A stretch of DNA of 64,000 nucleotides from Octopus sinensis (Eukaryota): NCBI RefSeq assembly GCF_006345805.1, contig NC_043015.1, positions 48,236,001 through 48,300,000 of the forward strand, written 5' to 3'. Shown here one piece after another: positions 8,656 through 57,200 of this stretch. The position numbers and the translations under genes are program-made. Numbering within the stretch: position 1 is the first letter of the stretch; each line of letters begins with the position of its first letter. Below the pieces are notes generated by a model, which did no database searches, was not told the origin of the DNA, and worked only from the letters and a program-made list of their open reading frames with translations.

Positions 8656-11600
8656 CTCTCTTTTTACTCGTTTCAGTCATTTGACTGCGGCCATGCTGGA
8701 GTAGCGCCTTTAATCGAGCAACTCGACCCCGGAACTTATTCTTTTGTAAGCCCAGTACTTATTCTATCGGTCTCTTTTGCCGAACCGCTAAGTGACGGGG
8801 ATATAAACACACCAGCATCGGTTGTCATGCAATGCTAGGGGGACAAACACACACACACATATATATACATATATACGACGGGCTTCTTTCAGTTTCCGTC
8901 TACCAAATCCACTCACAAGGCTTTGGTTGGCCTGAGGCTATAGTAGAAGACACTTGTATATATATATATACAACAAAAACTTTTTACCACACAGCTATGC
9001 CTTGAATAATTATAATCATATTTTGTTGTATCTAGTGTGTGGAGGAGGGGAGCTCATTATGCCAAAAATAAACACAGTCTTAAATAAATTTTGTCTTCAG
9101 TTCTACCGTTTTGCTTATTTTTCAATTACTTCTCTCTGTCCCTGTGAAATTTAGACTGATGGTGAAACAGAAATAACTTTAAGTGATGTGATGTATAAAG
9201 AGTCATCTGAAGAGTATAGAAAATCATTGAAAATTGCAAACACTATTCTTAGCGGTGCAATTGAAAGTGTCAAAACTTTCATGGGTATGGACCCTGTTAT
9301 AATTCCTATTGAGAATCAAACTACTGAAGATATTTTCATGAAAGTTGTAGAAGAAATTGAAAGTAAGTAGAAATTAAAATTTTTAAAAACTTTTTTAAGC
9401 CTTTAGTGTTCAAATTGTGGAGGCGCAATGGCCCAGTGGTTAGGGCAGCGGACTCACGGTCATAGGATCGCGGTTTCGATTCCCAGACAGGGCGTTGTGA
9501 GTGTTTATTGAGCGAAAACACCTAAAGCTCCACGAGGCTCTGGCAGGGGATGGTGGTGATCCCTGCTGTACTCTTTCACCACAACTTTCTCTCACTCTTA
9601 CTTCCTGTTTCTGTTGTACCTGTATTTCAAAGGGCCGGCCTTGTCACTCTCTGTGTCACGCTGAATATCCCCGAGAACTATGTTAAGGGTACACGTGTCT
9701 GTGGAGTGCTCAGCCACTTACACGTTAATTTCACGAGCAGGCTGTTCCGTTGATTCGGATCAACCGGAACCCTCGTCGTCGTAACCGATGGAGTGCTTCC
9801 ATAGTGTTCAAATTAATATGTCATAAGTAATCCTTATTCATTCACATTTCTAAAAATTTATCTGGTATTATCTTGTAGCTTCATGATTTGAAAGATGTAA
9901 TTGTTTATTTTTAGAATTACATTGCAGGGTAGGTGTGAGATCCTGGTTCCGGCCAGTTTGAGCATGAAATGAGTAGAATATTCGGGCCGGATATAGCCGG
10001 TTTAAACACTAAAGGGTTTAATGAAGCAGAATTTGAAAGGAAACTTAAATCACGTTATGGCTTGGGTGTATATGTTGGGTGTAAAAATAGTATTACCCAA
10101 ATAAAATATTTGGAATGTGGTTTTCTAGAATAACCTATCGCAGAATTATTATGATCACACAGAATGCACTTAATACTACTCAAACGTAGGTACAATATTC
10201 AACCAACACACGTCACACTAACACAGTAACCAATAACGGTTGACCATCACTGTGAACTGCTGCTGACAGTTCACATAGTTCTTTATTTATTGGAATCTGC
10301 TAGTCCATTTTCAGTCACATGGGTGTGTTCAGGATCCTCCCACGACAAATAATATATTGATTACAAATTTTGGCACAAGGTTGACAATTTTGGTGGAAAA
10401 AGTAAGTTGGTTACATTGACCCCTGTTCTACAACGAAAGTTCTACAACGAAAGTTGTAGACACAGAATAAAGCTACGAAAGAGCCGTAAAATTTCACAAT
10501 AAAAGTATTTTGTATGTTAATTCAAATAACATCGGAAAGGATTAAATTAAAAAGTAATGAAATATAGGAATGAATTTATCCAACAACCTTATAGATAAGG
10601 TTGGTTTAATTAGGAAATTCCTAGTAAGTATCTAATGCATCTAATTGTTTATTGTTGTTTGCTTATAACAGAACTTTTCAAACATGAAGCCATTGAGTAT
10701 TCTGTTACTGAAATGGAAGAAGATGATGCAAATTATGATGCTGATATGGAGGAGGATGAGAAAGAAGAAGAAGATGACAATTATGATGAAGAGGTATTGT
10801 CTTGACATCATTCATTCTAATCAATTTTACATGCAATTACTTTTCAATTAGCAAAAACAATTTGTATTGTAGTGAGCACACAAAAGTTGTGTCGCAAATT
10901 AATAAACACTTACATCAGTTCAAACATGTATGAGACATATTTAGCCTGTATAAAGGCTATATTCACTGCTAATCTGTTGTGAAGAATCTTTCTTACTGTT
11001 AGACAATAGGTTTTGAAAGACACCAACAGAATGCATTTCTCACTTCTTGGCAGTCATCAGCAAATTGTACTGCAAGAGGGACAACCCTGAAATGACTTTG
11101 GAAACCTTTCTTTCCTTATAGTAAATGAATATCAAAACACCCTTCACCTAGAGCAAGAAAAGTTCCCCAGCACAAATTAGCAGTGAATATGACCTTTGTG
11201 CAGGTCAAATATGTCCCCAAAATTTTTGAACTGATTTAAATGTTTGTTATACACAACACTGCTTTCATGCACTCACTACAATATTTTGTATAGCCAGGGT
11301 TGGCATTGCACTTGACCAGCTAAATATTTTTATGCTGCTTTACTATAAGGAAACAGATGTTTTTGAAGTCATTTCAGGGTTGTCTCTCTTGTGATACATG
11401 GTGCTGATGATTGCGAAAAGTGAGAAAGGTTCTCCACAACAAATAAGCAAAGAGTATTACCTTTGTACTGGATACATTTACTTTGTCCTAAATACATTTA
11501 CTCTTTTACTCTTTTACTTGTTTCAGTCATGTGACTGTGGCCGTGCTGGAGCACCGCCTTTAGTCGAGCAAATCGACCCCAGGACTTATTCTTTGTAAGC

Positions 11601-21000: not shown

Positions 21001-24000
21001 TCAGTTTGAACATAGGACAGGTAGACTATTTGGGCTGGATATGACTGGTTTAAATACTAAAGGGTTAAATTATATTTTAAAACAAAATACTTATTAATTC
21101 TTCATAGCAACAATTTTAAAACTATACATATGATATTTCTTGTGTTTTAGATCAGTTGGGTTCGTATTAGAAGGTTATCCAAGTATGGTAGATGATGTCA
21201 GTTTAACAGCAAATAGTGGATGTTTCCCAGAAGTTGCCATCATCTTAAACATTGAAGCAGAGGATGTTATTAACAGATTGTTGCCAGCCAGACTAAATTC
21301 TTGGAAAACTAAAAGGGATGCGAAACTTGAAAAAGTAGAGAAGAAAAAGGATCAAATAATGCAGGAAAGAGTGAGTAAACATTTCAGAGATTATTATCAT
21401 TGATTTCATTTTTAAAGCATTATTGTTAGTTCGTTAGTTCAGAAATTCTGTTAATTTTTTTTTGCTTATTCTCTCCTTATTGGGCAATCTCACTAATGCC
21501 AATGGCAGGAAGAAGAGCACTCACTACGCACCGTAAAGTGGTTGACATTAGGAAGGGCATCCAGCCTTAGAAGTCATGCCAAAGCTGACGCTGGAGCTCA
21601 ATGTAGCCCTATGGCTCGCCAAATCCTGCCAAATCATTCAACCCATCTCAGCATGGAAAACAGTTGTTAAATGATGATGATAACAATGATGATGACAAAG
21701 ATGATGATGATGAGGAGGAGGATGGTGATGATTATATTGATGAGGATGAAGACGACAGGAGTTTAATATCTTTGGAGGGTCATTATGCCAATAATGTACA
21801 CCAGCACTGGATTCTGTTTCACTTCTTTATTAATTGTCAATTGGTTAGCTGTTAAACCAATTAACTCATCAATCATCTGATTAATCATCATCATCATTTA
21901 ACGTTCATTTTTCCACGATGGCATGGGTTGAATGGTTTAACTGAACACTGGTAAGCTGGAGAGCTGCACCAGTTACCAATCTGATCTGGCATGGTTTCCA
22001 CAGCTGGATGCTCTTCCTAACGCCAACCACTCCAAGAGTGTAGTGGATGCTTTTTACGTGCCAGTTATATAACTCTGACATTGGCCCTGACTATGATCTC
22101 AGTTGCCTTGATGAGTGTTTTTCTCAAGCACAGCATATTGCCAAAGGTCTTAGTCACTTATCACTGTCTTCACGAGGACCAATATTTGAATGGTGCTTTG
22201 TACATGGCACCGGTATGGGTGCCAGTTATGCGACACTGGCATTGACTACAACTATGATTTCACTTGGCTTGACAGATCAAACAGTGCATTTTATGTGCCA
22301 TTTATGCAACACTGACATCGACCATGACTACAATTTCATTTGGTTTGACTGGTCGAATGGTGTTTTTTAGGTGTCACTGGCACAGGTGCCACTTACATAA
22401 CACTAGTATCACCCATGACTATGATTCCACTTGGCTTGACTGGTCTTCTCAAGCATGGCATATCACCAAATGTCTCAGTCACTTGTCATTGCCTCCCAAT
22501 CAGTTATGGTGACGAGCTGGCAGAAACGGTAGCACATCAGGCAAAATGCCTAGCGGTATTTCGTCTGTCGTTACGTTCTGTGTTCAAATTCCGCTGAGGT
22601 CGACTTTGCCTTTCATCCTTTCAGGGTCAATTAAATAAGTACCAGTTACACACTGGGCTTGATGTAATCAATCCCTTTGTCTGTCCTTGTTTGTCCCCTC
22701 TATGTTTAGCCCCCTGTGTGCAATAAAGAAATAAATCAGTTATGTTTGTCAGGGGTCATTTTATCACCAATTGTGCTGATGAGGTGTACAGGTGGCTCCT
22801 CAAAGTATAAGTAAAAGTGAGTGGAGACAGAGGGACTAGCAGTATTTGGGTGGGGGGTGGGGTGGGATAAATGCAAAGAGAATAGAAGGGGGCAAGAGAT
22901 GGAGAAATGCACCGGCATCTAACCCCTATTTTATAATCTCAACAGCTTATACCTTGTTATATAATCTCTCATCACTTAATACCCAGTTATAATTTTAATT
23001 CACCTCTTTATTTCCCCCAACAAATAATATGGTTATCTCCGATCATTGCTTATTTTTATTCAAAATATTTTATTTTATCCGTTCTCCGTTTCAAGAGTGA
23101 AAACATTGAAAAAAGACGTATGGAAATATTAAATGAACTCACCGAAAAACAAAAAGCAGCAGAAGAGGTATTTACTTAATTATATTCTAATAATTAATTA
23201 ATAATTTAAGGCAGTGAGCTGGCAGAATCGTTAAGCCGTTAGCATACTGGACAAAATGTTTAGTGGCATTTCAACTGTCTTTACGTTCTGAGTTCAAACT
23301 CCGCTGAAGTTGACTTTGCCTTCCATCCTTTCAGAATTGATAAAGTAAGTACCAGCTAAGTGCTGGGGTCGATATAATCGACTTTCCCCTCCCCCTGAAA
23401 TTGCTCGCCTTGTGCCAAAGTTTGAAATCAATAATTAATTGATAGTTAAATTATTGGGTTGTCCAGAAAGTTTGTGCCGATTTATAGTAGCTTACATTTT
23501 GACTTATTTTAGAACATGGTTGAGTCCACAAAATAGGATTTGACTACACCTCCATTTAGAGCACAGTTAAAGCTATCTTTTTGTGGAAGAAGGTTTATGT
23601 TCCTATAACCTGTATTAATTCTGTAACCCTTTAAAATGGAAAATAAGAAAGTTCATTTTCGGCACTTCATGCTTTTCTTTTTCTGTAAAGGGAAAAATGC
23701 CTCACAAGCAACCAAAGAAATATGCACAGTTTACGGTGAGGTTTCTTTATCCGAAAGAACTGTACAAAAGTTGTTCACAAGGTTCTGAGATGGAGATTGT
23801 AGGCTTATTGATAAAGAGCGATCAGGCAGACCATCCACTACAGATGATGACCCAATCAAGTCATTAATTGAGAACAACCCACACTGCACAACCCAAGAAT
23901 TGGCAGAAAGCCTCAACCTATCAAAATCTGTCATTCATGAGTACCTGGTAAAGCTTGGGTACATAAATCGCTATGATGTTTGGGTACCACATGAGTTGAG

Positions 24001-26335
24001 TGAGAAGAACCTTTTGGATCGCATTTCCATCTGTGATTCGCTTTATAAACGGAATGAAAATGCACCTTTTTTAAAGTAAATTGTGACAGGTGATGAGAAA
24101 TGGATTATCTACCGAAATGTTCAGAGAAAGTGATCTTAGAGTAAGCGACATGAGCCACCCTTAGCCACCCCAAAAACAGGTCTTCACCTTTAAAAAATCT
24201 TGCTTTGGAGGAGGAGGAGGAGGAGGACAATGATGATGATGTGGTAATGACTGATGATGATGATTACTACTACTGCTACTCTTGATGCTGCTGCTGCTAC
24301 TACTACTACTACTACTATTACTACCTTAGGAAAGAATTACAGTTGTAATGATGTAATTTTTCCTTCTTGTAACTAAGCTGCATTTTTATTTTTTGTAAAA
24401 TTTTCATATCATTTAAAGGAAGGAAAAGAAGAGGATCCTGATGAAGAAATGGACATTGAATCAACACTGTTGGAAGAATTTCCGGTAATTATAAGTTATG
24501 TCTTCAACTTAAGCTTAACAATAGATTTTAGAACATTGAGTAAGTTTCTCAATAAACTTTGGAAACATATTGTGGTGTTTTACAATTTAGAAATAAAAAA
24601 GTGAGTATTTTTTTTGGCCATTTATAATCCTATTTTACTTTATAGAACTGGGTTAATCCTCTGACCACCTTTTAGAACTGAGATAATCCTCAGTTCATTT
24701 TATAGAATTGGAATAATCCTCAGTCTATTTTATTGAAGTGAGATAATCCTCAGTTCATTTTATAGAACTGGGATAATCCTCTGCCAATTTTATGGAACTG
24801 GGATAATCTCCTCTTCATTTTATAGAACTGGGATACTATAATGTATAGAATCCTGTTTTAAATAAAGTTTTACAAAGAATATTTATTGAAAGATAGTCTT
24901 TGAATAGTTTTCTCTTTTGATATAATTTCTTCGTAAAACTACGTACCTATGGATTCTGTCTTGCAGTTGCCTGAAGATGACAGAAGGGATGAATTTGAAA
25001 CTGAAGATGATGCCAGAGCTAGATTTTCTAAAGATATTTCAACGTTATATGAGGCAGAAAATTCAGAAATAGAAAAAGTTCGGGTTAGTTACTATGATTT
25101 TCCTTTGCTTTTTTTCTTTACAACATCAAGGGGTAATAACAGATGTAGACAAAAGCAAGAGAAGGTGATGTTCAATAAGAGACAAACACTCTCATTCCTA
25201 TATACACACACACACATAAATCCCGTCTTCTATCACCACCCCTTGTTTGATGTAAATCACTGTCTTTCAGACCTTTTTATTAATTACTAGCATTATGACC
25301 CGGCAACGACGGGTCATAGTGCTAGTGCATGTATATATGTGTATATATAAGTGTACATATTACATGTACATCTATATATATACATCTACACATAAAATAC
25401 AAAATACAAAGTTATATCTTGATATCGCCAGTGATAACAATACTCAAAATATATAACAGACTGGAATTGTAGGCCCGTCTCTTACAATTTCGATCAATTG
25501 GATCTTGTCCTCCCTCTTGTATAGAAGTGTGGCTACAATCCAGCCTACCTCAACTTCTGGGGGGGGGAGAGACATTTTAAATTTTTATCCGGTACATCCT
25601 ACGTCCCAGATATAAAGGTAAAAATAAAATATTTCCACTTTGCAAGTTCGAGTCGAGTACTCCCTTGCACGTTCCGTTGACTCGAACCTTGCTTCTATTG
25701 TGGCGAATTTACCGCCTCTGGTTAGATATCTTTCATAGTCGCACCAAGACACTTTTCGAAGGTGCTTTCCTCCAGGTGTTCAAATCTTTTTTTTCTACAT
25801 TGTATACTTTATAGACAATAGTCTTTTCTTTAATTTAATTTTTTATTATCCAACTGGACTATTCCATTTCTGCACGCTAATTTTATTTTTAACTTATTCC
25901 CATTCATGTGAAACCACTTATTCAAGTTCAAATCATTGATGCAATTTTATACCAATTGCTATTTTTACTTTTGTTATGTTACGATTATATTATACTTTAG
26001 TTTGATTTTAATTATTACTTACTACATATAATTCAATTGTTATTATTATTTTTATTGTTAAAGTAAAAGTATCTGACATAAAATAACATGTAATACTGAA
26101 ATAGTGGAGAAGATATATTACTATGGGCTCGTTCTAGGCAAGAAGTTGAACATTTTTTTTGCCCATGAAACTACATGGACCCTAAGTAAGGCATGTGTAA
26201 AATTTGAATGGAATTGGTTGTGTAGTTCTCAAGTTTTAGGGAAACACACAGACAGACAGACAGACAGACAGACACACATCTCAGTTTTATATATAGAGAG
26301 ATTCTCTAATGATTCTCCCAGCTCATCGCCTTAGA

Positions 26336-30289: not shown

Positions 30290-33200
30290 GCGCGCACACA
30301 TGCATATGCATATATGGCTTTCAGTTTCTATCTACTAAATCTACTCACAAGGTGTCAAGCAGTGAGACTGAACCCAAAGCCATGTGATTGAGAAGTGACT
30401 ATCTTAACCACAGAGCCACGTCTGCGTCTTAAATTCTGAACTCAGGAGTTCAGAGTTCAAGTCATATCGAGCCTCTTACTTCTTCTGAGTCCAATAACAT
30501 AAAAGGGACATATCAAGGTAAGTGGTCTAGCTTGAGAGGGAAATCGATCACGTTTACCTGTCATCAGCTTGCTTTGCAAACATGGTTTTGGCATCAGTCT
30601 CAGTGCATGGCATCATGGGCAAAATGACCTGTGGATGGAAACTGTGTGGAAGCCCATATATATGTGTGTGTGTGTATGTATTATATGTTCCAAAAACTAT
30701 ATACAAGTACAAACAAATGGGAAAGACACACATGGAATGTCACTAAATCCTCTTCAGTTATTGTCCAAAGGATCATAGCAATTCCATGCCTTCATCCTTT
30801 GGATGATAACTGAAGAGGATTTTGCATTCTATGTGTGTATTTTCCATTTGTTCCGTTTGTTTGTACTTGTATGTATATCTTTGAACATATTCAAAGTAAC
30901 ACCACACACTTTCTTATTTTATATATAGGCGCAGGAGTGGCTGTGTCGTAAGTAGCTTGCTTACCAACCACATGGTTCCGGGTTCATTCCCACTGCGTAG
31001 CATCTTGGGCAAGTGTCTTCTACTATAGCCTCGGGCCGACCAAAGCCTTGTGAGTGGATTTGGTAGACAGAAACTGAAAGAAGCCTGTCGTATATATGTA
31101 TGTGTATGTGTGTGTGTATGTATTATATGTTCCAAAAACTATATACAAGTACAAACAAATGGGAAAGACACACATGGAATGTCACTAAATCCTCTTCAGT
31201 TATTGTCCAAAGGATCATAGCAATTCCATGCCTTCATCCTTTGGATGATAACTGAAGAGGATTTTGCATTCTATGTGTGTATTTTCCATTTGTTCCGTTT
31301 GTTTGTACTTGTATGTATATCTTTGAACATATTCAAAGTAACACCACACACTTTCTTATTTTATATATAGGCGCAGGAGTGGCTGTGTCGTAAGTAGCTT
31401 GCTTACCAACCACATGGTTCCGGGTTCATTCCCACTGCGTAGCATCTTGGGCAAGTGTCTTCTACTATAGCCTCGGGCCGACCAAAGCCTTGTGAGTGGA
31501 TTTGGTAGACAGAAACTGAAAGAAGCCTGTCGTATATATGTATGTGTATGTGTGTGTGTGTATGTATGTATGTGTGTGTATATGTTTGTGTGTCTGTGTT
31601 TGTCCCCCCTAACATCGCTTGACAACCAATGGTGGTGTGTTTACATCCCCGTAACTTAGCTGTTCAGCAAAAGAGACCGATAGAACAAGTACTAGGCTTA
31701 CAAAGAATAAGTCCTGGGGTTGATTTGATCGACTAAAGGCAGTGCTCCAGCATGGCCACAGTCAAATGACTGAAACAAGTAAAAGAGAGTAAAAGAGAAT
31801 AATGTGTGTGTGTGTGTGTGTGTGTATGTGTAAGAGAATTTTTTCTCCATAGTATTTGCTTTGAATTTGTCTTTTAGAAGTTGAAATTTGTCAAAAGCAT
31901 AAATTAACTATTCTGAAGTTCACTTAAGTGTAAACACCGCTTGGGGCTGATACTACTTAATTTCTTCCAACCTGGCAATCTAATTGTGCATTTTAGTCAA
32001 AGTTGTTGACTGCATTTTAGTTAAAGCTATGTCTTTGATTAGGTCTGTCCAGAGTTACCTCTCCAGTGTTTCACATTGATAATGGCTAAAGAGCTAGAAA
32101 CACAGCATCTGGAAATCTGACAGGGAGCAACACTGAACAGATGTGCTTTTGCACTTTTTGCCATAAGAGAGAATTTGTTCTCTGTGGTAACTACAGTGAA
32201 TTTGCCTTTAAAAATTGAAATATGTCACAAATATATTTTAACTAACCTAAAGTTCACACACCCACCCCACCCACTGCTTGACAACCAGTGTTAGTTTGTT
32301 TACATCCCCATAACTTAGCTCAGTAAAAGAGAATGATAGAATAAGTGCCAAACTTTAAAAAAATAATTACTGGAGTCAATTTATTCAACTAAAACACCTT
32401 CAAGGTGGTGCCCCAGCATGGCCACAGACCAATGGCTGAAACAAGTAAACAATAAAAGATATAAATGAATTTTAACATTTTAATCCAAGATATGAGGCAG
32501 CTAGCTAGCAGAATTGTTTGCCCACTAAACACAATATATAGTGAAATTTTGCCCAGCTTTCAGGTTCTGGGTTCAAATTCCACAGAGGTCGAGTTTGCCT
32601 TTCATTCTTTCGGGGGTCAATAAAATAAGCACAAGGTGAGCACTGGGGCCGATGTAACCTATTTCTTTACTACCCACAAGGGGCTAAACACAGAGATGAC
32701 AAACAAGGACAGACAAACGGATTAAGTCGATTACATCAATCCCAGTGTGCAACTGGTACTTAATTTATCGACCCCGAAAGGATGAAAGGCAAAGTTGACC
32801 TCGGCGGAATTTGAACTCAGAACGTAACGGCAGACGAAATACGGCCACGCATTTCGCCCGGCGTGCTAACGTTTCTGCCAGCTCGCCGATGTAACCAACT
32901 TATTCCCTCCCCCAACCTTGATGGCCTAGTGCCAAAATCTGAAATCAATATGAAGGTGCCAAGCTGGCAGAATATTTAGCAGATCGAACAAAATGCTTAG
33001 CGGCGTTTTGTCTGTTTTTACGTTGTGAGTTCAAATTCCACCGAGAAAATGACTGTGCCTTTCATCCTTTCGGGGTCGATTAAATAAGTACCAGTTATGC
33101 ACTGGGGTCAATGTGATTAACTTAACCCCTGTGCCTAGTGCCAAAATTTGAAATCATTATGAAAGCAGTGAGCTGGCAGAAGCATTAGCTTAGCAGCATG

Positions 33201-39505: not shown

Positions 39506-42500
39506 ATAATATCAGGGTAATAAATATTTTATAAACTTTTACTACCCGTGGCCTAGCATGTAGAAAAAATTAGTCAATAGACTATATATTATTCATATAA
39601 ATGCAGTGTACATTTAAACATATAAGAGGTATCCTTCATAAGATTCCTTTAATGCTAGAAGGAACAGCTAAAGTCCAAACCACTATTAGGGATAAAAAAA
39701 AAACTCGAAGGGAATGAAAAATAAAAACATTTACCATCTATTTCCTAGACCATGGTTTCTGACTTTTTTTTAGCAAATATGATGAAGACTTCACCTAGCA
39801 AATTATTTTATTTGCTAAAAAAAAATGTCAGAAACCATGGTCCAGGAAATAGATGGTAAATGCTTTTATTTTTCCTTTCTTTGAAGTTTTTTTTATTCTT
39901 CCTAGTAGTGGTTTGGACTTCAGCTGTTCCTTCTAGCATGAAAGGAATCCTATGAAGGATACCTTTTATGTGTTTAAATGTACACTGTATTTACATATAT
40001 ATATGTGTGTGTGTGTATGTATATATATATATATGACAGGCTTCTTTCAGTTTTCATCTACCAAATCTACTCACTAGGCTTTAGTCAGCACCAGGCTATA
40101 GTAGAACACACTTGCCCATAGTGCCATGCAGTGGGACTGAACCCAGAACCAGTTGGTTGGTGGAGTGAGCTTCTTATCATACACCTACACCACCAGCACC
40201 TGTGGTGATAGCTTTTGTTTTTTTTTTTGTTTTTGTTTTTATCTAGATTTACATATTAAGATATGTAAGCAATTAATTACAGCTTCTATTCTAAATCTAC
40301 TTTCGTCAAATTTCATCTTCATCATCCTCACCATCATCATCCCCGCCTCCTCCCATCATCATCATTATTTAATGTCCACTTTTCCATGCTTGCACGAATC
40401 AGACAAATTCGTTGAGGTAGACTCTCTACAGCTGGATGCTCTTCCTGTTGCTGAGCCTCACCAAGTAAATGAGGTGCTTCAAACTTAAATAGCACAGTGG
40501 CCAGACAAGATTTCACAAACTTCGTAGGCTGACTCTGAAGGAGTGAATACTGCAACTGTGAAATCTTGCGTGCATTAATTTCAGCTCTTCTTATTAGTAA
40601 CTACATTGTTTCTTCCTAGGTAAACCGACATCTGACTGTTCAAAGAACACTTCAAAAGTAACTGGTAGCAATTTCTCTTGAAAATGGTCAAATCTTTCAT
40701 CAACATTCATCATCATCATCATCATCATCATCGCCACCACCATCATCAGCAGCAGCAGCACCACCACCATCATTTAATGTCTACTTTTCCATGCTTGCAT
40801 GAATCAGACAAATTCATTGAGGCAGACTTTCTACAGCTGGTTGCACTTCCTGTTGCTAACCCTCACCTGTTTCCAAGTAAAGTGCTTCAAGCATAAATAG
40901 CACAGTGGTGTCATCAAGTACCTGCAGAAAAAGGTTTTTAGCCCCACCAGGGACATCCATGCTGACCTGGTTTATAACATTAGGGTATTACATTCCAGCT
41001 TTATCAAAAGTGCATAGCTGAATTTAAGAAGGGAACTGACCTTTCAACGTATTTTAGAACATGGTTGAGTCCATAAAATAGGATTTGACTACACCTCTAT
41101 TTAGAGCACAGTTTAAGCTATCTTTTTGTGGAAGAAGGTTTATGTTTCTATAACCTGTGTTAATTCTGTAACCCTTTAAAATGGAAGATAAGAAAGTTCA
41201 TTTTTGGCACTTGATGCTTTGGGAACCAGACAAAAATTGCTGCAGCTCGGCTGGGATGTGTTACCCCACCCTCCATATTCACCAGATGTTGCTCCTTCGG
41301 ATTTCCACTTATTCAGGTCTCTGCAGAATAGTCTTAATGGTAAAAATTTCAATTCCTTGGATGATGTAAAAAGATACCTTGATGTATTCTTTGCCATGAA
41401 ACCACCTCAATTCTGGGATGGGTTTTTTTCAAGTTAAAGGAAAGATGGAGACGCACTGTGCAACAAATGGTTCATATTTGGTTGATTAAAAATGTAATGG
41501 CAAGTATTTATTGACCTTTTTCTTTCTTTTAAAAATCGGCACGAACTTTCCGGACAACCCAATACATGCCTGGTCACTGGAAATATTATTTTTCTTGGAA
41601 TAATTAAGGGTTGGCAGCAGGAAACCTGTCTCAAAATAAATTCTGACTGACCTATGCAAGCATGGAAAAGAGGATATTAAGTGGTGGTGATAATGATGAT
41701 GGTGGTGGTGGCAATGGTTGTTGCTGTTGTTGTTGCTGCTGTTGCTGCCGCTGACGCCACTGCCGATGCCGACGACGACCATCATCATCATCATCATCAT
41801 CATCATCTATGCAAGCTGTGACAGATGGCGTGATATTATTTTACTACACCTTCGCATTTCAGATGTAATTAACCCTTAAAAAAATTACTTAATCTTGCTC
41901 AATTACTTCCTTATCTTTCAGTTATGTTTTTGACGGGATACCTGCGACTGACAATCTAGCCAAATTACTGGATGCCAGGAAGATTATTCCAGTAAAGGTC
42001 TTAGTGTTGAATACTGCCATGGAAGAAACTGCATTCAGAGGATCTCTTGAACGAGTCGAGAAGGAAGCGTGAGTCTGATTGAAAATACTTGCCTCCAGTA
42101 AAATCTAAATTTTGCCTGATGTAATTCTGGTCATTTTAATCCTTAATCTTTTAGTATTTAGATTACTCTGTCAAATGTAATGCTTGTTGCTGGTGTCATG
42201 CAAATGACACCCGTGAAATTATAATTGTGGCCATAGCCAGTAGCATGATCTGCGAATGTTGGGCCTCATGAAGGCGAGGAATAAGGTGGTGAAGCATGAT
42301 CTTTGTATGTTGGGCCTCATGGAGGCAAGGAACAAGGTGGTGAAGCATGATCTTCGTCTGTTGGGCCTCATGGAGGCGAGGAATAAGGTGGTGAAGTATG
42401 ATCTTTGTATGTTGGGCCTCGTGGAGGCGAGGAACAAGGTGGTGAAGCATGATCTTCGTCTGTTGGGCCTCACGGAGGCAAGGAACAAGGTAGTGAAGCA

Positions 42501-44448: not shown

Positions 44449-44667
44449 CGGAGTAAACACATAAATGTGAAACAAGTGGAAAAAAGAGTACTCAATACCA
44501 GTGGTAGAGTAATATGCTTTATTTTAAGCAGCAGAAAATTCAACAAATCTGTTACTCTGAGTTTCTCGTTGCCGTTCATCAGACAGTTCTAGCAAGAACT
44601 GTCTGATGAACGGCAACGAGAAACTCAGAGTAACAGATTTTGTGAATTTTCTGCTGCTTAAATAAAG

Positions 44668-44718
<51 letters not shown>

Positions 44719-48057: not shown

Positions 48058-50801
48058 CAGCAGCAGCAGCAGCAACTGTAGAAGTAGGGCAATGGTGGTG
48101 GTGGTGGTGGTGGTTGTGGTGGCGGCAGTGGTGGTGGCGGTGGTGGTATGTGAACAATTCCAAAACTTTCTTTTAATGTCTTTATATAAGTTCTCTCTGT
48201 TTTGTGACAAACCTAATCAAGTGACAAACGAGCAAATACAAACGAAAATGTTTTCTTCCAAACTCCATCTCGGTTTTTTTTTTTTCCTTATCTTCTTTCA
48301 CGTGTCTTTCTGTCTTCCTTGCCAGATCAAGCAGCCAGGCTCCAGGGTTTATGTATAACTAAAGAAACATTCTTCAGCAGACTTGGTGAATTCCGTGAAT
48401 ACTGTCCGGTTACCCTTGCGCTCGATGGAGAATTAGCAGATTGTTCAAAAGATGAATCGATGAACCTTGTTGCTGAATATCAAGGTAATCTTGGCTCAGA
48501 TTTCAATGCTCAGTGAAAGAATAAGCTTCATGAAAGAATGGTCCCTCCTGGGTTCAGTACCACTGTGTGGCACCTTGGGCGAAATGCTTAGCGGTATTTA
48601 GTCTGCCGCTACGTTCTGAGTTCAAATTCTGCCGAGGTCGACTTTGCCTTTCATCCTTTTGGGGGTCAATTAAATAAGTACCAGTTACGCACTGGGGTCG
48701 ATGTAATCGACTTAATCCTTTTGTCTGTCCTTGTTTGTCCCCTCTGTGTGTAGCCGCCTGTGGGCAGTAAAGAAATAGGTATTTCGTCTGCTGCTACGTT
48801 CTGAGTTCAAATTCTGCCGAGGTCGACTATGCCTTTCATCCATTTGGGGGTCAATTAAATAAGTACCAGTTACGCACTGGGGTCGATGTAATCGACTTAA
48901 TCCTTTTGTCTGTCCTTGTTTGTCCCCTCTATGTTTAGCCCCTTGTGGGTAATAAAGAATTATATACTAGGCTTTAAGCCTAGTATAATAACATATAAAT
49001 TAAGGATAAAGAAAGAAAGAATAGAAGAAGCAAAAGTAAAGGTGAAGAAAAATAACTGCATACAAGCCAATTAGGCATAGGGTCAGGGTTTGGGATTCAC
49101 TGGCTAAGACTAATGAACAAAGAGTAGAGGGCAGAGATGTACAAAATTTAGGGGTATTTTGTGTATCTCCAGCCTCCTCCTTTTATAATATATATAATGA
49201 AATTATTGTATACAGTGCTCAGGTGCACCACAACTTGTCAGAAAGTGCGTATAGAGTATATGCAGTAATGTATAAATGTCTGGAAAGAGAACAGTGTATG
49301 AGTCAGATACATGCTTGCGTGTGTATGGAGGGGAGGAAATCAGGTGTAGTGTTGGCGAATCTCAGGAAGCATGGAAGTTTTGAAGGATGCAGTGCTCCGA
49401 CAACTAACAACTGATGCCGGCAGTTTGTTCCATGCTTCAGCAACTCTCAGCGTGATAAAATGTTTCCTAAAGTCATGGGAGCTGTGCTGTTTTCTGACTT
49501 TGTAAATATGTCCACGGGTGTTAGACGGGTGGAGTTTGAAAAGGTGCTCTTTAGCCTTAGCTAGTGAATCCTAAACCCTAACCATATGCCTAATTGGCCT
49601 GTATGCAGTTATTGTTCTTCACCTTTTGCTTTCTCTATTCTTTATTCTTTCTTTATCCTTAAGTCACATTGTGTGATTATGACAAGGGAAGGATGACCTC
49701 CCTTTGCAAATACCATAAGGGCACTGAAAGTGTGCCTAAAGCCAGCTGGAGACGATGTTCTCCTGGGGCTACAAGCTACAGTAACACCCACCCTTAGTGG
49801 TTAGCCATATTGAGATGGCAAGTATACCTCACATTGTCGTGCAGTTACTGTTTATACCTCGTTCAGAGATTTATTATTGCTTGCATACAGTTTTTCGAGA
49901 TCAGTGACGAAAAGTACTGGAAAAACGATATAAGTATTTGCATTGGGACCCCTTTCATCGAAAACCGGTGATTGCCGTACGCTGAGGACAGGTCAATACC
50001 TAGAAACTGCAGTCCGTGCGTATCACTTAGGTTAACGAGGGAAGGATGACCTCCCTTTGCAAATACCATAAGGGCACAGAAAGTGTGCCTAAAGCCAGCT
50101 GGAGACGATGTTCTCCTGGGGCTACAAGCTACAGTAACACCCACCCTTAGTGGTTAGCCATATTGAGATGGCAAGTATACCTCACATTGTGTGATTGTTT
50201 TATAGCAAAATTCATATCAATACAAGAAACCAAAGTAATTACATTGTTTCCTTATATCACATTAGTTATATTTGTGGCACAAATATAACATAAGAAAACA
50301 ATTTATATAAATTTTGCTAAAAATGGTTTATTCTTTATGTTGGAAATCTATATGGTCATCTGCAATTGAGGAGAGCAGCTTCTTTCAAATTAATGTAACG
50401 TTTTCACATTGATTGATTAAATGGAGCCACTTGAAACAGCCGTAATGCACTGATACCTGGACATCCTTGTTATTTATTTGTTATCATCATCATCATCATC
50501 ATCAGCATTGTTTAACGTCCGTTTTCCATGCTAGCATGGGTTGGACGGTTCGACCGGGGTCTGGGAAGTCAGGAGGCTGCACCAGGCTCCAGTCTGATCT
50601 GGCAGTGTTTCTACAGCTGGATGCCCTTCCTGATGCCAACCACTCCATGAGTGTAGTGGGTGCTTTTTACAGGGGCGAGAGGAGGCTGGCAACGGACACG
50701 ATTGGTTGGTGCTTTTCACGTGACACCGGCACGGACACCAGTCAGGCGACGCATATATATATATGTGTGTGTGTGTATATATATGTGTATGTGTGTGTGT
50801 G

Positions 50802-50848
<47 letters not shown>

Positions 50849-50938
50849 GTACTGTTTCACGATTGAAAATTCAACAAAAAAGGTACTCTATTTGGTGAGA
50901 GATAAATATTATTTATTTAAAGGGCACAAAACATGTAT

Positions 50939-50995
<57 letters not shown>

Positions 50996-51382
50996 GGTAT
51001 GTAGAAAAATACAACATGGACAAGAACGTATAACTCATAGAAGACGATACAATAAACATGGACAGGACATTCGAACCCCTCAGTCTTCAGTCAAGAACCG
51101 GATCATCGTAGTAATTTCGGCTGATTAATCTTGATATATATAAAGTTAATCCAAACATGAAAACACAAAGAGAAAGCACAACAACGCGAGGACGTGGAAC
51201 AAATATAGTATTATTAGATACTCAGGAAGGAAAGGAAGGAGGGTTCTACGTTTTGAGCGGAGCTCTTCGTCAGAAACATAGGAAAAGGAAAGATCCAGAG
51301 AAGGGAAGACGGAGGAAATAAATTGCCAACAGTACACACGAGGTCACATTTTGAATGTATATATATACATTTTGAATGTGTG

Positions 51383-51424
<42 letters not shown>

Positions 51425-52968
51425 TGTGGGAGATCAACATACAAAAGTTATACAATCCTAGATTTTATCCATAAAAATAGTATTTTAGATGAAAGTAGCA
51501 GAAAACTGGATTTTCCCAATATCTGATCTAGCATACCTAATGAAATTATAGAAATTTAAAAAATCAGCCATGCTTGCTTTCATCCAGCTGTGCCTCTTTT
51601 TTATTTTCGAGTTTAAACTGAAGCACCAGGCAGATTACATATTTCAGCAAGATACATTATTTCATTTTCAGTTCAATTCTGCTGGGACATGAAAGCCTAT
51701 ATCAGCAGGGTGCAGGATTGCTTGCTTTCTGCATTAATCTTTTACTTGTTTCACTCATTGGATTGCAGCCATGCTGGGGCACCACCTTGTAGGGTTTAGT
51801 CTAACAAATCCACCCCAGTACTTAGGTTTTTTTTTTTTTAATCTAAATGGCGATGCCCCAGCATGGCCACAGCTTGTGAGCTGAAACTAGATAAAAATAA
51901 AAAAAAATAAAAAATACTTCTTCTGTTGGTTTCTGTTGCCGAACTCCTAAGATATGGAGATATAAACACACCAACACTGGTTGTCAAGTGGTGCTGATGT
52001 GGATCAAACGCAAAAACATGCACGCACACACACACACACACACACATACACACACGTACAAAGGGCTTCTTTCAGTTTCTCTCCATCAATTCCATTCATA
52101 AGGCATCTGTCAGCCTGAGGTTAAAGTGGAAGACACTTGCCCAAGGTGCCATGCAGTGGGACTGAACACAGAACCATGTGATACATAAGGAGCAACCTTC
52201 TTACAAACATTATTATTATTTTGGCATTAGGAAGGGCATCCAGCTGTAGAAACACTGCCAGATCAGACTGGAGCCTGGTGCAGCCTTCTGGCTTCCCAGA
52301 TCCCCGGTCGAACCGTCCAACCCATGCTAGCATGGAGAACGGACGATAAACGATGATGATGATGATGATGATGATATTATTATTATTATATTATTATTAT
52401 TATTATTATTATTGAGTGAGAGAGCAGTGGATGCCATCAAAGTGACACCGGGGTAAAATATATGAAGCCCAATATACCCATCATGACTACCCGTCTGATA
52501 AGGGTACACCAAGCACATTGCATCACAACCATATGTGCATGACATGGTGATCTCATATCAAGATAAACAGCACATGACCTTGCAGGTGGGGCCCAGTTAG
52601 AATTTTCTTCTGGTTGAGTAGCCCATACCGCTCAAAAGGTCCCTGAATAACGGTTGTTTAAGGATGTTGAACGAAACACCCATGTTTCCAGAGGTGAGTT
52701 ATTTAAACCCCAAAAAATCCCTCTCAACACATGGCTATGATGCTCCCCCACTACTTCTGCTCGTGATCAGAGATGCACATATCATCAGCCATTAAGGGAC
52801 ATGCTCAACTGGTTAAGATCAAGCAACTGACAAGCAAATCTGTGGTATTGAGCAGAATATTTGCTGTAGCCCATCTTTTATACCAAGACAAAACAATGCA
52901 CATGATAACACTTCCAATCAGTTAAGATCAGAAGCCACGAGAGCCACTGCCTGGTTCTGCATCAGGGC

Positions 52969-53063
<95 letters not shown>

Positions 53064-54191
53064 GTTTGACTTTTGCTATATATTGGTACAAGTTGGCTCC
53101 AACTCTCACCCAGAGACCTCAAGAGACAACATTATGTTTGTTTTAAGCCTTGAGATTTCATAGAAAGTATTTTGCGTAGGATATGAGCAGTTCCCATGAG
53201 CACTATCTCTTGAATTTCTGCCATTTTGGGGTTTCCTGGTATCTGAGTTAGGTAGAGATCAGCCCCTTTTGCTATCATTCCCAGAGCACCTATGTATGAC
53301 AACAGGTATTGTTTTAGGCTTCAGATTTCACATTTTGCTGATTTCTGTTTCAAGATCTTTATATTTGCTCAGTTTTTGGTAGGTCTTCACAGATACGTTT
53401 ATATCGATTGGGACAGTAATATCAATGAGGAGGCATGTTCTTTGTCTGAAGTCATTCAATATGATGTCTGGCCTATTTGCATCTATCTTTCTGTCAGTTT
53501 GAATGGGGAAGTTCCAGAGGAGTGAGATGCAGTCATTTTCAAGCACTGGGGGTGGTTTGTGTTCCCACCAGTTTTTTACATGGGGCAAATCCAGGTTTTT
53601 GCAGATTATCCAGTGAATATATTGTGCAGCTCTATCATGCCTGTTGAGGTACTCTGTAGGTGCTAGAAGAATGCACTTGGAGACAACATGATCAATGGTT
53701 TCATTTTGTTGTTGACATACACGACATGTTGGGCTACTGCCGTTCTTTATAATATGCTGGCCTGGTTGTTTCTTGTTGGTAGGCATTGATCTTGAGCTGC
53801 TATGATAAACCCCTCTGTTTCAGATTTTAAGCCAGAGGCCATTAGCCATTGATGGGTCAGGGCTTGGTCAACATCTGCATTTATTCGCTCTCTTTGGGTA
53901 TTTGCCATAGAGAGGTTTTTCTTACCATTTATCATTCAGAATATCTAAGGCTGCAGTTTTAGCACGAGTTTTAATGTGCTTAGCTTTTTCTGTGCTTGTT
54001 TCTTGTATGTCTATCTCTAATTCCGAAATTTGTTGTATTCGGAATTCACTTAAATATTCCTTTGCCTGTTTTGTTACTGAGTATGATGCTTTCTTGTTTT
54101 CATGTTTTGAGACAAGTTTTAACATCCAGTCCTCAGAGTTTTTCGGGTAGGTGTCTAGGCCAATTGTAGCAATCTTCATTGTTATTGCCAG

Positions 54192-54229
<38 letters not shown>

Positions 54230-57200
54230 GTAAAGTAAAAAATGTTTTAAGACCTTTTAAAACAGTTTGAACAACATTTGATGGTTTATTTTTACTTTTA
54301 TTCAGGAAAATATTACAAAATGGAAAATGAGGCACGAATGGAGACATTTTTAAATGAACCACAAAAATTTGTTCCTCCTTACGCTCCAATGGCTTTACCC
54401 CCTCAAGAACTGATCCCACAGAAATGTTTAAAGAAAGAAGAAACCCCACAATTTGAATACTTTGGTTACTGTCCCGTGACATACTATGAAGGAAAATGTC
54501 GGTATGATATTTTAAGGGGTTTTTTACAAAATATTGGTCTAAGTTTTCATTATTCATTTCAAAATAACAAAGGTTTTAATCTTTCTTTGTCTTCGATAAT
54601 GCTTTGTAAGTGAAATTGACTGATAGAAACTGTGGGGAAGCCCATCTTGCTATGTGATAGCAATTTATACTCTTGTTGAGGCAAGTGAAATCAAAATCAA
54701 ATTCGATGACTGGCATCCGTGCTTAGTGGAGCGCTAAGAGCACCATCCGAGCGTGATCGTTGCCAGAGCAGCTAACTGGCTTTTGTGCCGGTGGCACATA
54801 AAAAGCACCAATCGAGCATGATTGTTACCAGTGTTGCCTTACTGGCACATGAAAAAACATTCGAGTGAGGTCGTTGCCAGTGCCACTGAACTCGCTCCGG
54901 TGCCCTTCCTAACACCATCCACTCCAGGAGTGTAATAGGTACTTTTACATACCTCCGGCTACAGTTCACGGATACCATTCACATGGCATTGGTAACAACG
55001 GCTATGATTCACGAATGCCATTTACATGGCACCAGCAATGACCATGATTCACAGATACCATTTACATAGTGCCGTCAACACCCACAACTCACAGGTGCCA
55101 TTTACATAGCGCCACCTTAATTTGTTTATAACAGTTAATGTTTTATAAGTAAAGGCACATGGCCTAGTGGTTAGAGTGTCGTGCTCACAATTTCAAAATT
55201 GTGTTTCAATTCCTGAATCAAGTAATGCATTGTATTTTTGAGCAAAACACTTCATTTTATATTGCTCCAGTCCACTCAGCTGCAAATGAGTGACCCTGTG
55301 ACATACTAGCATCCCATTCAAGAGCAGGAGTGATCTTTGTCATTCATATGCCATGGAAACTAGGTAACTGTCTTTATGAGCCCCAAGACATGAGACAGTC
55401 ATGTCCAGTTGGTAGGTTTACTTAATCTCTCTATATATAAACGGCAAAATATCTGTGTGCGTGTCCTTTATACAAATCCACAATTTTTCAGTTAGAGAGC
55501 TCACACTTTCTGTGGTCATTCAAAACCTTCCAAGGGTGGTCGTGCACATCTTTACATTTTCCCAGTCACCCTGCAAAGCCATTAAAAAATCAATAGAAGT
55601 GACTGACTTTTTTGTGAATTTTGTATCCAAATCCCAATCAAAATGCCCGAAACTTGATACGCCAATTGAATGCCAGATAGCTGTATGTGATTGGTCAGAG
55701 ATTTGGACAGTACTCGCATGTATGTGCGCACGCACGCAGCTGTATATGCATGCACTAGCACTATGACCCGGCATTGCCTGGTCATAGTGCTAGTGTTTTA
55801 TAAACTGTTTGGTCAGGCTTTCACTTATGCTGTCTTTTCTTTTTTTTTTTATTTTTGTTTTGGGTTTTTGTTTCTAGATATGAAGCAATTACTCTTGGTC
55901 AACCAGATTTAGTTGCTGAATATCAGAAAAAATATTATTGTTTTGCCTCAGAAGAGAAACTGGAAAAATTCATGAGGTAATTAATACTTCATAATTTCTT
56001 AATAAAATAACATTGTATAACAAAATTTAAAAAAAAAAAAATTTGTCTTTGGTCAGTAATTGTTATTTCCTATTTGCTTCAATCTAGAAATCAAAGGAAA
56101 TGACTTCTATTCCCTTCAAACATTGCTTTTGTGACCTAGATATCAATGTTTTGAAACTGACTTATTTTCCATTACATTTCACACAGATTCAGCACTGAGT
56201 TGCTGAAGCAGAAATATCGTTATAGCAAATATTCTGCTCAGTACCACAGATTTGCTTGTCTGTTGCTTGACCATAACCACCTGAGCATGTTCCTTAGCGA
56301 CTGACAATATGTGTGTATCTTGGATTATGAGCTGGTGTAGTGGGGAGGGATTATTTTGGTTTTGAAAAAATGTAACAAAAGCAAAGTCTGAAGAAAACAT
56401 TAGCCATTTTTCATACTTTGTAGGGGTAAGCAGGTAGAAAATAACAGTTGCTACCCAAGGGCAAAAATCATGTTACACAATGTAACCATTCTAACTGAGC
56501 AGAGTTCTGGTTACAATATAGTTCTGCTCAATCAAGATTAACCAGGATTAAACAACAATGACTGCAGGATGAGGTAAACTTCATTAATTATGAAGAATTG
56601 GTAATAATTAATTAAATAGATTATTGATTTTTTATAGCAAATTAAATAAATAAATAATAAATAAATAAATAAATATTACCACTCTCTAGTTTTGGAGGAA
56701 AGGATAATTCTTTCTACTAAAGACACAAGGCCTGAAATTTGTGGGGAAGGGACTTGTTGATTACATCGACCCCAGTGTATAACTGGTACTTAATTTATTG
56801 ACCCCGACAGGATGAAAGGCAAAGTTGGCCTCAATGGAATGCCATATAGCATGAATCGTCAACTCTTTTTTTTTTTTGCCAAATGTACCAGTTTCCTGCA
56901 ACACAATTTTTCCACTGGCCAGGGGATCAGATGCATGATAAAACACAATAAGCCGAATAATCATCATCGTTTAACGTCCGTTTTCTGCGCTAGCACGGGT
57001 TGGATGGTTCGACCGGGGTCTGGGAAGCCAGGGGCTGCACCAGGCTCCAGTCTGATCTGGCAGTGTTTCTACAGCTGGATGCCTTTCCTAACGCCAACCA
57101 CTCTGCGAGTGTAGTGGGTGCTTTTTACGTGCCACTGGCACAGGTGCCAGGGGAGTCTGGCATCGGCCACGATCGGTTGGTGCTTTTAACGTGCCACCAG

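What the first reader, a model, noticed from the sequence alone, without database searches (positions are those of the whole stretch)
49664..50196. Apparently intact hammerhead ribozyme in a 353-nt retrozyme-like repeat, sense to the AK9 pre-mRNA
Seen: 153-bp direct repeats exactly 353 bp apart with one mismatch, which suggests a young insertion. A 15-bp flanking duplication (tcacattgtgtgatt) has its first 9 nt also matching the monomer, suggesting microhomology-primed insertion. There is no coding capacity. At 49968-50026 lies a complete type I HHR: stem I CGTACG/CGTGCG extended by GTGAT/ATCAC across an internal loop, core CUGAGGA, stem II AGG/CCT with loop UCAAUA, then GAAAC-UGCA-GUC. Established: non-LTR retrozymes and Schistosoma Sm-alpha-type repeats are 170-400 nt tandem units with type I HHRs; their short stem III has a palindromic loop (here ACUGCAGU) and cleaves as a dimer, producing monomeric and circular RNAs. 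Inference: this is a permuted ~1.4-mer cDNA of a 353-nt circular RNA from a possibly undescribed cephalopod retrozyme family. Being sense in an intron, it could be cut in the pre-mRNA.
Basis: partly seen in the sequence, partly recalled or inferred. Interest (0 to 1): 0.92.

Follow-up and report, generated by a model that had tools for sequence, protein, structure and literature searches.

The report
Penelope-mobilised hammerhead retrozyme family
This intron insertion is one of hundreds of copies of a small non-coding jumping element carrying a predicted self-cutting RNA; the copies end at the two fixed points typical of Penelope-type retrotransposons, which likely copy it, possibly from a small circular RNA.

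Summary
A 511-bp insertion (1.45 turns of a 353-bp unit) with a 15-bp target duplication and one type I hammerhead lies sense in an AK9 intron. It belongs to a dispersed family: 258 exact hammerhead matches in the genome (control 0), plus two sister families. The stems covary, and loop III is mostly palindromic, which favours dimer cleavage (predicted). The family is not randomly permuted. Its 3' ends fall at two fixed sites about 46 nt apart. In 64 of 64 two-armed inverted insertions with both ends classed, one arm ends at each site, and both arms share subfamily variants (95% against 56% for shuffled pairs). With 9-15-bp duplications and AT-rich targets, this is the Penelope-like (PLE) signature. 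It is junction-level evidence for the proposed PLE mobilisation of retrozymes. Copies read through the cleavage site and past one unit, which fits a circular template but also uncleaved multimers. Not shown: cleavage, circles, expression, and the partner PLE. This lone copy has a 2-bp stem III and a C·A pair, so cutting of AK9 pre-mRNA is probably weak. Verdict: new member of a known kind, with useful mechanistic data.

The parts
49664..49678 (+). Left target-site duplication (15 bp)
49680..50190 (+). Single-armed insertion, 511 bp = 1.45 units; 5'-truncated at unit position q19 (q1 = base after the cleavage site, 50015); 3' end at the short family site (q176)
49680..49837 (+). First copy of the 158-bp repeat (pseudo-LTR-like; 3 mismatches to the second copy)
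49835..49881 (+). 'Tail': about 46 nt between the two family-wide 3'-end sites (q172-176 and q213-223), inferred to be reverse-transcription start sites
   Evidence: analogy to PMC11167929
49968..50026 (+). Type I hammerhead: stem I 49968-72/50022-26 and 49976-81/50015-20; core CUGAGGA 49982-88; C·A at 10.1-11.1; stem II 49990-92/49999-50001 with loop UCAAUA; GAAA 50003-06; 2-bp stem III with loop UGCA; predicted cut after C50014
50033..50190 (+). Second copy of the 158-bp repeat, ending at the short site
50182..50196 (+). Right target-site duplication; first 9 nt shared with the element end (microhomology)
48326..48484 (+). Upstream AK9 exon (matches residues 1600-1654 of PDB AK9)
54306..54505 (+). 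Downstream AK9 exon (matches residues 1651-1726); right end approximate

Best explanation
This is one dispersed copy of a non-coding 353-nt retrozyme family that is likely copied into the genome by the reverse transcriptase-endonuclease of an autonomous Penelope-like element (PLE). Steps: (1) a few source loci with two or more hammerheads are transcribed (inferred); their hammerheads pair through the palindromic helix III and cut out monomers that are ligated into circles (predicted). (2) A PLE protein binds the RNA and makes a staggered cut of about 10-13 nt in AT-rich DNA (inferred from the 9-15-bp duplications). (3) Each cut end primes reverse transcription inside the RNA, one at the short site (q~173) and one at the long site (q~218). 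The two fixed ends and their one-of-each pairing are shown; priming is inferred. (4) Both cDNAs come from the same template lineage (shown), run through the ribozyme junction without stopping (shown) and terminate at variable points. Joining the two gives head-to-head insertions; keeping one gives single arms like this copy. (5) The window copy has a single hammerhead, so it cannot release a monomer by itself and likely cuts AK9 pre-mRNA only weakly.
For: Fixed ends. Among 129 loci picked by an internal motif (67 family A, 62 sister set B), 74 are two-armed; 64 have both ends in a class and all 64 are short+long (p 5e-20 against independence); the other 10 have an unclassed end; singles are 27 short, 24 long, 4 other. 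TSD >=9 bp (9-15, mode 12-13) in 38 of 78 loci with non-repetitive flanks; 91 of 169 loci lie in microsatellites. Mismatched-flank control 1-5 against 44 of 84 at >=8 bp. Arms share diagnostic alleles at 251 of 265 sites against a null mean of 0.555; 206 of 217 with ends trimmed. 86 of 90 arms that reach the cleavage junction pass it; 41 of 188 arms exceed one unit. Repeated parts within one arm agree at 32 of 33 (A) and 32 of 35 (B) diagnostic sites in the unbiased sets. Hammerhead: 96% of cells paired, 21 double-change cells, 0 of 500 shuffles as high (related sequences, so not a probability); N7 takes all four bases; loop III palindromic in 94 of 129. In two natural dimers the dimer fold beats two monomer folds by 12.5-17 kcal/mol. 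Intact RT+GIY-YIG ORFs of 775-883 aa exist in the genome. Two internal RT start sites that bound the tail, and cutting and extension of both strands, are shown in vitro for a lizard PLE (PMC11167929). Inverted 5'-truncated copies and one-sided tails are described PLE features.
Against: No autonomous PLE with a homologous pLTR was found. Of 53 PLE loci (some overlapping), matches fell at three genomic places and look like separate neighbouring insertions; 8 of 230 element loci have PLE ORF pieces nearby, none joined to the unit. Circles, cleavage and expression are untested. In the lizard PLE, hammerhead mutants insert normally and unprocessed RNA is the main substrate. A U4-to-C (CCGA) lineage makes up 23 of 111 cores in sets A and T (eight loci counted in both), so a weakened ribozyme may still spread. 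Core positions are not less mutated than the rest in families A and B (5.3% against 4.4%, 5.7% against 2.5%). Among the longest copies, 35 of 175 diagnostic sites disagree between repeated parts, mostly in four loci; one circle read twice does not explain those. G10.1-C11.1 is absent in all 129 motifs. The unit's fold is only modestly stable (z -2.4 sense, -2.0 antisense).
Confidence: 0.62

Rival explanations
1. Same PLE-type integration, but the template is an uncleaved linear multimer transcribed from a few tandem arrays; the hammerhead is inherited from the PLE ancestor and is not needed for copying.
For: Hammerhead activity is dispensable for insertion in the lizard PLE in vitro. Arrays and dimers exist and their units are 0-2% apart, so they would give the same within-arm agreement as a circle. 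A CCGA core lineage has spread. Mosaic long copies exist.
Against: The core, covarying stems and palindromic loop III persist across three families 65-80% apart. Same-strand hammerhead pairs were found at only 6 loci among those held. The 5-mer and the dimer checked look expanded after insertion. No pile-up of 5' ends marks a fixed transcript start.
Confidence: 0.27
2. The copies are merely 5'-truncated tail stubs of an autonomous PLE, and the 353-bp periodicity comes from local duplication.
For: Ends, tail and inversions are those of ordinary PLE stubs; earlier notes in other genomes read similar small elements this way.
Against: 41 of 188 arms wrap the same closed 353-nt unit at independent loci. 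Upstream flanks of 76 single arms share no common extension; the three matches are two loci held twice and one duplicated region. No ORF is joined to any of 230 loci.
Confidence: 0.05
3. A TRIM or solo-type LTR element with 158-bp LTRs.
For: Direct terminal repeats flank a short internal part in this one copy.
Against: The repeats do not end in CA; there is no purine tract before the second repeat and no evident primer site; the TSD is 15 bp; other copies have variable 5' ends and inverted arms.
Confidence: 0.01
4. The copy has been co-opted to cut or regulate AK9 pre-mRNA.
For: It is sense in the intron with an intact core. A similar axolotl hammerhead (2-bp stem III, mismatch at the base of helix II) cleaves 22% in an hour as a monomer (PMC7229834).
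Against: It is young (3 mismatches in 158 bp), one of hundreds, has a single hammerhead, no partner in the window, and a predicted inactive monomer fold (tertiary contacts not modelled).
Confidence: 0.05

Closest known systems
Metazoan non-LTR retrozymes (Cervera and de la Pena 2020, PMC7229834; mussel 350-390 bp, axolotl Rtz_353 with HHR_Amex2)
   Same: About 350-nt non-coding unit, GC 45%, type I hammerhead, no LTR, PBS or PPT, long TSDs. The 2-bp stem III with tetraloop and a mismatch at the base of helix II match the description of HHR_Amex2.
   Different: Mostly dispersed sub-dimer insertions, not long arrays. The parts of the paper I read propose PLE mobilisation from co-occurrence and do not report fixed ends, tails or inverted arms. 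Expression and circles are shown there and not here. Sequence relationship to the mussel family was not testable.
Vertebrate retrozymes as non-autonomous PLE derivatives (Li, Clavereau, Pollet 2026, bioRxiv 10.64898/2026.07.22.740005)
   Same: Same conclusion; monomer-rich families and local array expansion are described there too.
   Different: Their evidence is co-occurrence and pLTR homology in Xenopus; no mollusc is among the taxa named. Here the evidence is insertion anatomy, and no homologous pLTR was found.
Endonuclease-positive PLE insertions (Craig et al. 2021; Frangieh et al. 2024, PMC11167929)
   Same: Partial tandems, inverted 5'-truncated copy, one-sided tail, AT-rich targets, two internal end sites downstream of a hammerhead.
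   Different: No ORF; a closed 353-nt unit; tail about 46 nt against 30-40; a canonical-type rather than minimal hammerhead. Strict one-of-each use of the two sites per insertion, whereas the in vitro study saw no difference in start site between strands.
Non-autonomous Chlamys PLEs such as MRC1 (PMC8557442, passage)
   Same: Non-autonomous elements with pLTRs and head-to-tail insertions.
   Different: Those generally resemble their autonomous families at the 3' end, and most Chlamys lack hammerheads.

Membership tests
Type I hammerhead ribozyme | Core CUGANGA / GAAA / UH with three stems, stem I open | tested here: met
Type I hammerhead ribozyme | G10.1-C11.1 pair at the base of stem II | tested here: not met
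   C·A 96, A-U 16, U·U 9, U-A 7, U·C 1 of 129 motifs; an active natural hammerhead with U·U there is described
Type I hammerhead ribozyme | Match to an Rfam hammerhead model | tested here: not met
   no hammerhead family at E<=1
Type I hammerhead ribozyme | Self-cleavage | not testable with these tools
   only folding energies
Non-LTR retrozyme | Non-coding unit of 150-450 bp with a type I hammerhead, GC below 50% | tested here: met
   353 bp, GC 45%
Non-LTR retrozyme | Tandem copies with two or more hammerheads | tested here: met
   met for the family (6 loci; a 5-mer array); not for the window copy, which has one
Non-LTR retrozyme | No LTR, PBS or PPT; TSD longer than 4 bp | tested here: met
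Non-LTR retrozyme | Expressed as linear and circular monomers | not testable with these tools
   only assembled contigs available, none on record as RNA
PLE-type insertion | Two fixed 3' ends bounding a tail present on one side only | tested here: met
   64 of 64 classed two-armed insertions
PLE-type insertion | Variable 5' truncation, partial tandems, adjacent inverted copy | tested here: met
   74 of 129 loci two-armed; 41 of 188 arms longer than one unit
PLE-type insertion | AT-rich or microsatellite targets | tested here: met
   91 of 169 loci microsatellite-flanked; no genomic background rate was computed
Non-autonomous derivative of a specific PLE | Sequence homology to the pLTR of an autonomous family | tested here: inconclusive
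   none found, but only 150 of 5029 GIY-YIG candidates were scored and 53 loci examined
Autonomous PLE | RT + GIY-YIG ORF | tested here: not met
TRIM / LTR element | TG..CA LTRs, PBS, PPT, 4-6-bp TSD, fixed ends | tested here: not met

The most novel reading that the evidence does not exclude
A Penelope protein dimer holds one small circular retrozyme RNA and uses both ends of a staggered DNA break as primers, one obligatorily at each of two fixed internal sites, reading round the circle through the ligated ribozyme junction. This would be the first direct picture of how animal ribozyme circles are retrotransposed, would explain the PLE one-sided tail and inverted copy as a single coupled event, and would give a 353-nt minimal substrate for PLE biochemistry.
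Probability: 0.35. Interest if true: 0.78.

Novelty: new member of a known kind. Interest (0 to 1): 0.5.

Why it matters
The link between animal retrozymes and Penelope-like elements has rested on co-occurrence and pLTR similarity. Here a non-coding retrozyme family carries the PLE integration signature at more than a hundred examined junctions, which supports that link by independent means. The strict short+long pairing and the shared template of both arms constrain PLE integration steps that are still untested. The family, three generations deep, offers a small natural RNA for testing whether circles are the template. I found no description of a cephalopod retrozyme in eight literature searches; Repbase/Dfam and two relevant supplements could not be seen.

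Tried and rejected
Rfam: no hammerhead hit. Runs: no RNA holder listed; 4 of the 24 listed runs were laid, all contigs. Family sequence is present in all four, no contig spans the locus or shows the empty site, so neither expression nor polymorphism can be read. Partner search: one recalled Pfam accession was not in the library. The GIY-YIG search scored 150 of 5029 candidates, mostly one family. Homologues beside PLE ORFs at L098/L111, L087/L113 and L077/L103 look like separate neighbours; the L111 copy has (TA)n on both sides. 5' ends piling up at the cleavage site (a linear cleaved template): rejected, 4 of 90. A cluster of second-pass 5' ends at q333-340 in five top hits comes from a length-selected set and is left unexplained. 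Arrays as rolling-circle products: rejected for the two checked, since their units are 0-2.3% apart but 3-7% from their own inverted arm. Recurrent differences between the 5' and 3' copy that would mark one heterogeneous master locus: none stood out apart from end effects. tRNA origin: ARAGORN found nothing. The bacterial promoter scan is uninformative here. One search used a structure string shifted by one column and is void; one search replaces it. Duplicated loci were dropped before counts: 3 of 70 in set A, 8 of 70 in set B, 12 of 60 in set T, and 8 more T loci shared with A. Set B includes some more distant copies caught by its motif. Earlier-findings look-ups by place and by sequence gave nothing.

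Full report
Observation. The repeat extends to 158 bp (49680-49837 / 50033-50190) with three mismatches, one of them in the 153-bp core. The hammerhead has CUGAGGA at 49982, GAAAC at 50003 and C17 at 50014; positions 10.1-11.1 are C·A. Rfam finds no hammerhead. Flanking + strand exons match PDB adenylate kinase 9 and define an intron 48485-54305, so the element is sense. I use unit coordinates with q1 = 50015. The taxon was not tested.

Family. A DNA search gave 3612 candidates, of which 40 were scored, giving 130 matches; the full-length ones are 88-97% identical. An exact hammerhead pattern occurs 258 times (131 +, 127 -; reversed control 0) and an internal motif 333 times. A sister motif occurs 487 times; that family B is 75-80% identical, also with a 353-nt unit. 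A third, older family C is about 65-70% identical. These are lower bounds. Contigs of all four public runs laid, from two coded organisms, hold the family.

The ribozyme. On 22 natural copies from these families, 96% of cells pair, 21 show double changes and 0 of 500 shuffles reach that; slid controls give 16-51% (related sequences, so this is not a p-value). N7 takes all four bases. Loop III is UGCA or UCGA in 94 of 129 motifs. Canonical metazoan hammerheads with a 1-2-bp helix III and palindromic loop need a second copy to fold as a dimer (PMC4209133, passages). In two natural dimers the constrained dimer fold is 12.5 and 17 kcal/mol better than two monomer folds and within 3.1 kcal/mol of the minimum; for L133 the unconstrained minimum already shows the eight-pair helix III. 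The window monomer prefers an inactive fold (-16.3 against -8.6; tertiary contacts ignored). Against strict dependence on the ribozyme: no motif has G10.1-C11.1, a CCGA lineage accounts for 23 of 111 cores, only 18 of 47 spanning arms keep a fully intact core, and core positions decay as fast as the rest in A and B, as expected of dead-end copies.

Ends. 3' ends cluster at q172-176 and q213-223. To avoid bias I took 129 distinct loci picked by an internal motif. 74 are two-armed, with 5' ends joined and 3' ends outward. In 64 both ends fall in a class, and all 64 pair one short with one long end; 10 have an unclassed end; singles are 27 short, 24 long, 4 other. Of 169 loci, 91 have microsatellite flanks; 38 of the other 78 have a 9-15-bp duplication (mismatched-flank control 1-5 against 44 of 84 at 8 bp or more). 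Junction microhomology averages 2.4 nt against 1.8 in controls (p 0.001); the window's 9 nt is the largest of 67. The two arms share subfamily alleles at 95% of sites against 56% for shuffled pairs, close to what age alone would erode (4% mismatch elsewhere).

What this means. Inverted 5'-truncated copies and a one-sided 30-40-bp tail are PLE hallmarks (10.1101/2021.04.23.441226, passages). A purified lizard PLE protein cuts and extends both strands at AT-rich DNA and starts reverse transcription at two internal RNA sites that bound the tail; its hammerhead is dispensable for insertion, and start sites did not differ by strand (PMC11167929, parts 1-2 of 4 read). The family studied here fits that chemistry and adds that, per insertion, the two sites are used one each, on one template lineage. 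Intact RT+GIY-YIG ORFs are present, but no homologous pLTR turned up in the 53 PLE loci examined. The partner is therefore inferred, not identified.

Circle or multimer. Of 90 arms reaching the cleavage junction, 86 pass it; 41 of 188 arms exceed one unit and 6 reach the second junction. A cleaved linear monomer cannot be the template. In unbiased sets the repeated parts within an arm agree at 64 of 68 diagnostic sites, as for one unit read twice; in the length-selected set 35 of 175 disagree, mostly in four mosaic loci. The 5-mer array and one dimer look expanded after insertion. Same-strand hammerhead pairs were found at six loci. A circle from such sources fits, and related retrozymes do form circles (PMC7229834, parts 2-4 of 6 read; supplement unreadable), but uncleaved multimers fit nearly as well. 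I put PLE-type mobilisation at about 0.9 and a circular template at about 0.65 given that.

This copy. It is a single short-ended arm of 511 bp with one hammerhead and no homologue elsewhere in the window. It cannot excise a monomer alone. Some monomer cleavage is possible by analogy with axolotl HHR_Amex2, but an effect on AK9 is unlikely to be large; this is inference.

Novelty. Non-LTR retrozymes are known, and their PLE origin was argued from co-occurrence and pLTR homology (10.64898/2026.07.22.740005, parts 1-3 of 5 read; supplements closed). Eight searches and passages of PMC10886601, PMC8490949, PMC8557442, PMC8969392 and PMC11722881 showed no cephalopod retrozyme and no report of tails or paired ends in retrozymes. 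The held library is incomplete, and Repbase/Dfam and the supplements above may bear on this. Earlier scan notes from other genomes describe similar PLE-type small elements; they are unchecked leads. Verdict: a real, new member of a known kind, with junction data that make the retrozyme-PLE link and the circle hypothesis directly testable. Interest 0.5.

Noticed in passing
window ~44518-44668: Near-perfect palindrome with a minimal hammerhead motif on each arm, next to (TA)n; looks like a stub of an unrelated PLE family.
   Followed up: partly
window 49023-49641: 97-nt inverted repeats (84%) around a very high-copy repeat just upstream of the element; MITE-like.
   Followed up: no
window 30665-31559: Exact 442-bp tandem duplication; recent duplication or assembly artefact.
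   Followed up: no
window 41192-41434 and 23789-24076: Transposase-like fragments in AK9 introns; the second hits HTH_Tnp_Tc3_2, the first looks mariner-like by eye (recalled, not tested).
   Followed up: no
L030:1880-2480: About eleven 50-bp tandem repeats of the hammerhead core region itself (q297-347) inside a two-armed insertion.
   Followed up: no
L091-L095, L099-L102: Young PLE family with several intact 781-aa RT+GIY-YIG ORFs, 98-99% identical, with a long 3' region; candidate donor of the enzyme, no sequence link to the unit.
   Followed up: partly
L111:8286-8512 / 9002-9228; L096, L097, L108: Other hammerhead-like motifs beside PLE ORFs, unrelated to this unit.
   Followed up: partly
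L003, L010, L015, L016: Long copies whose repeated parts belong to different subfamilies; template switching or re-insertion into an older copy.
   Followed up: partly
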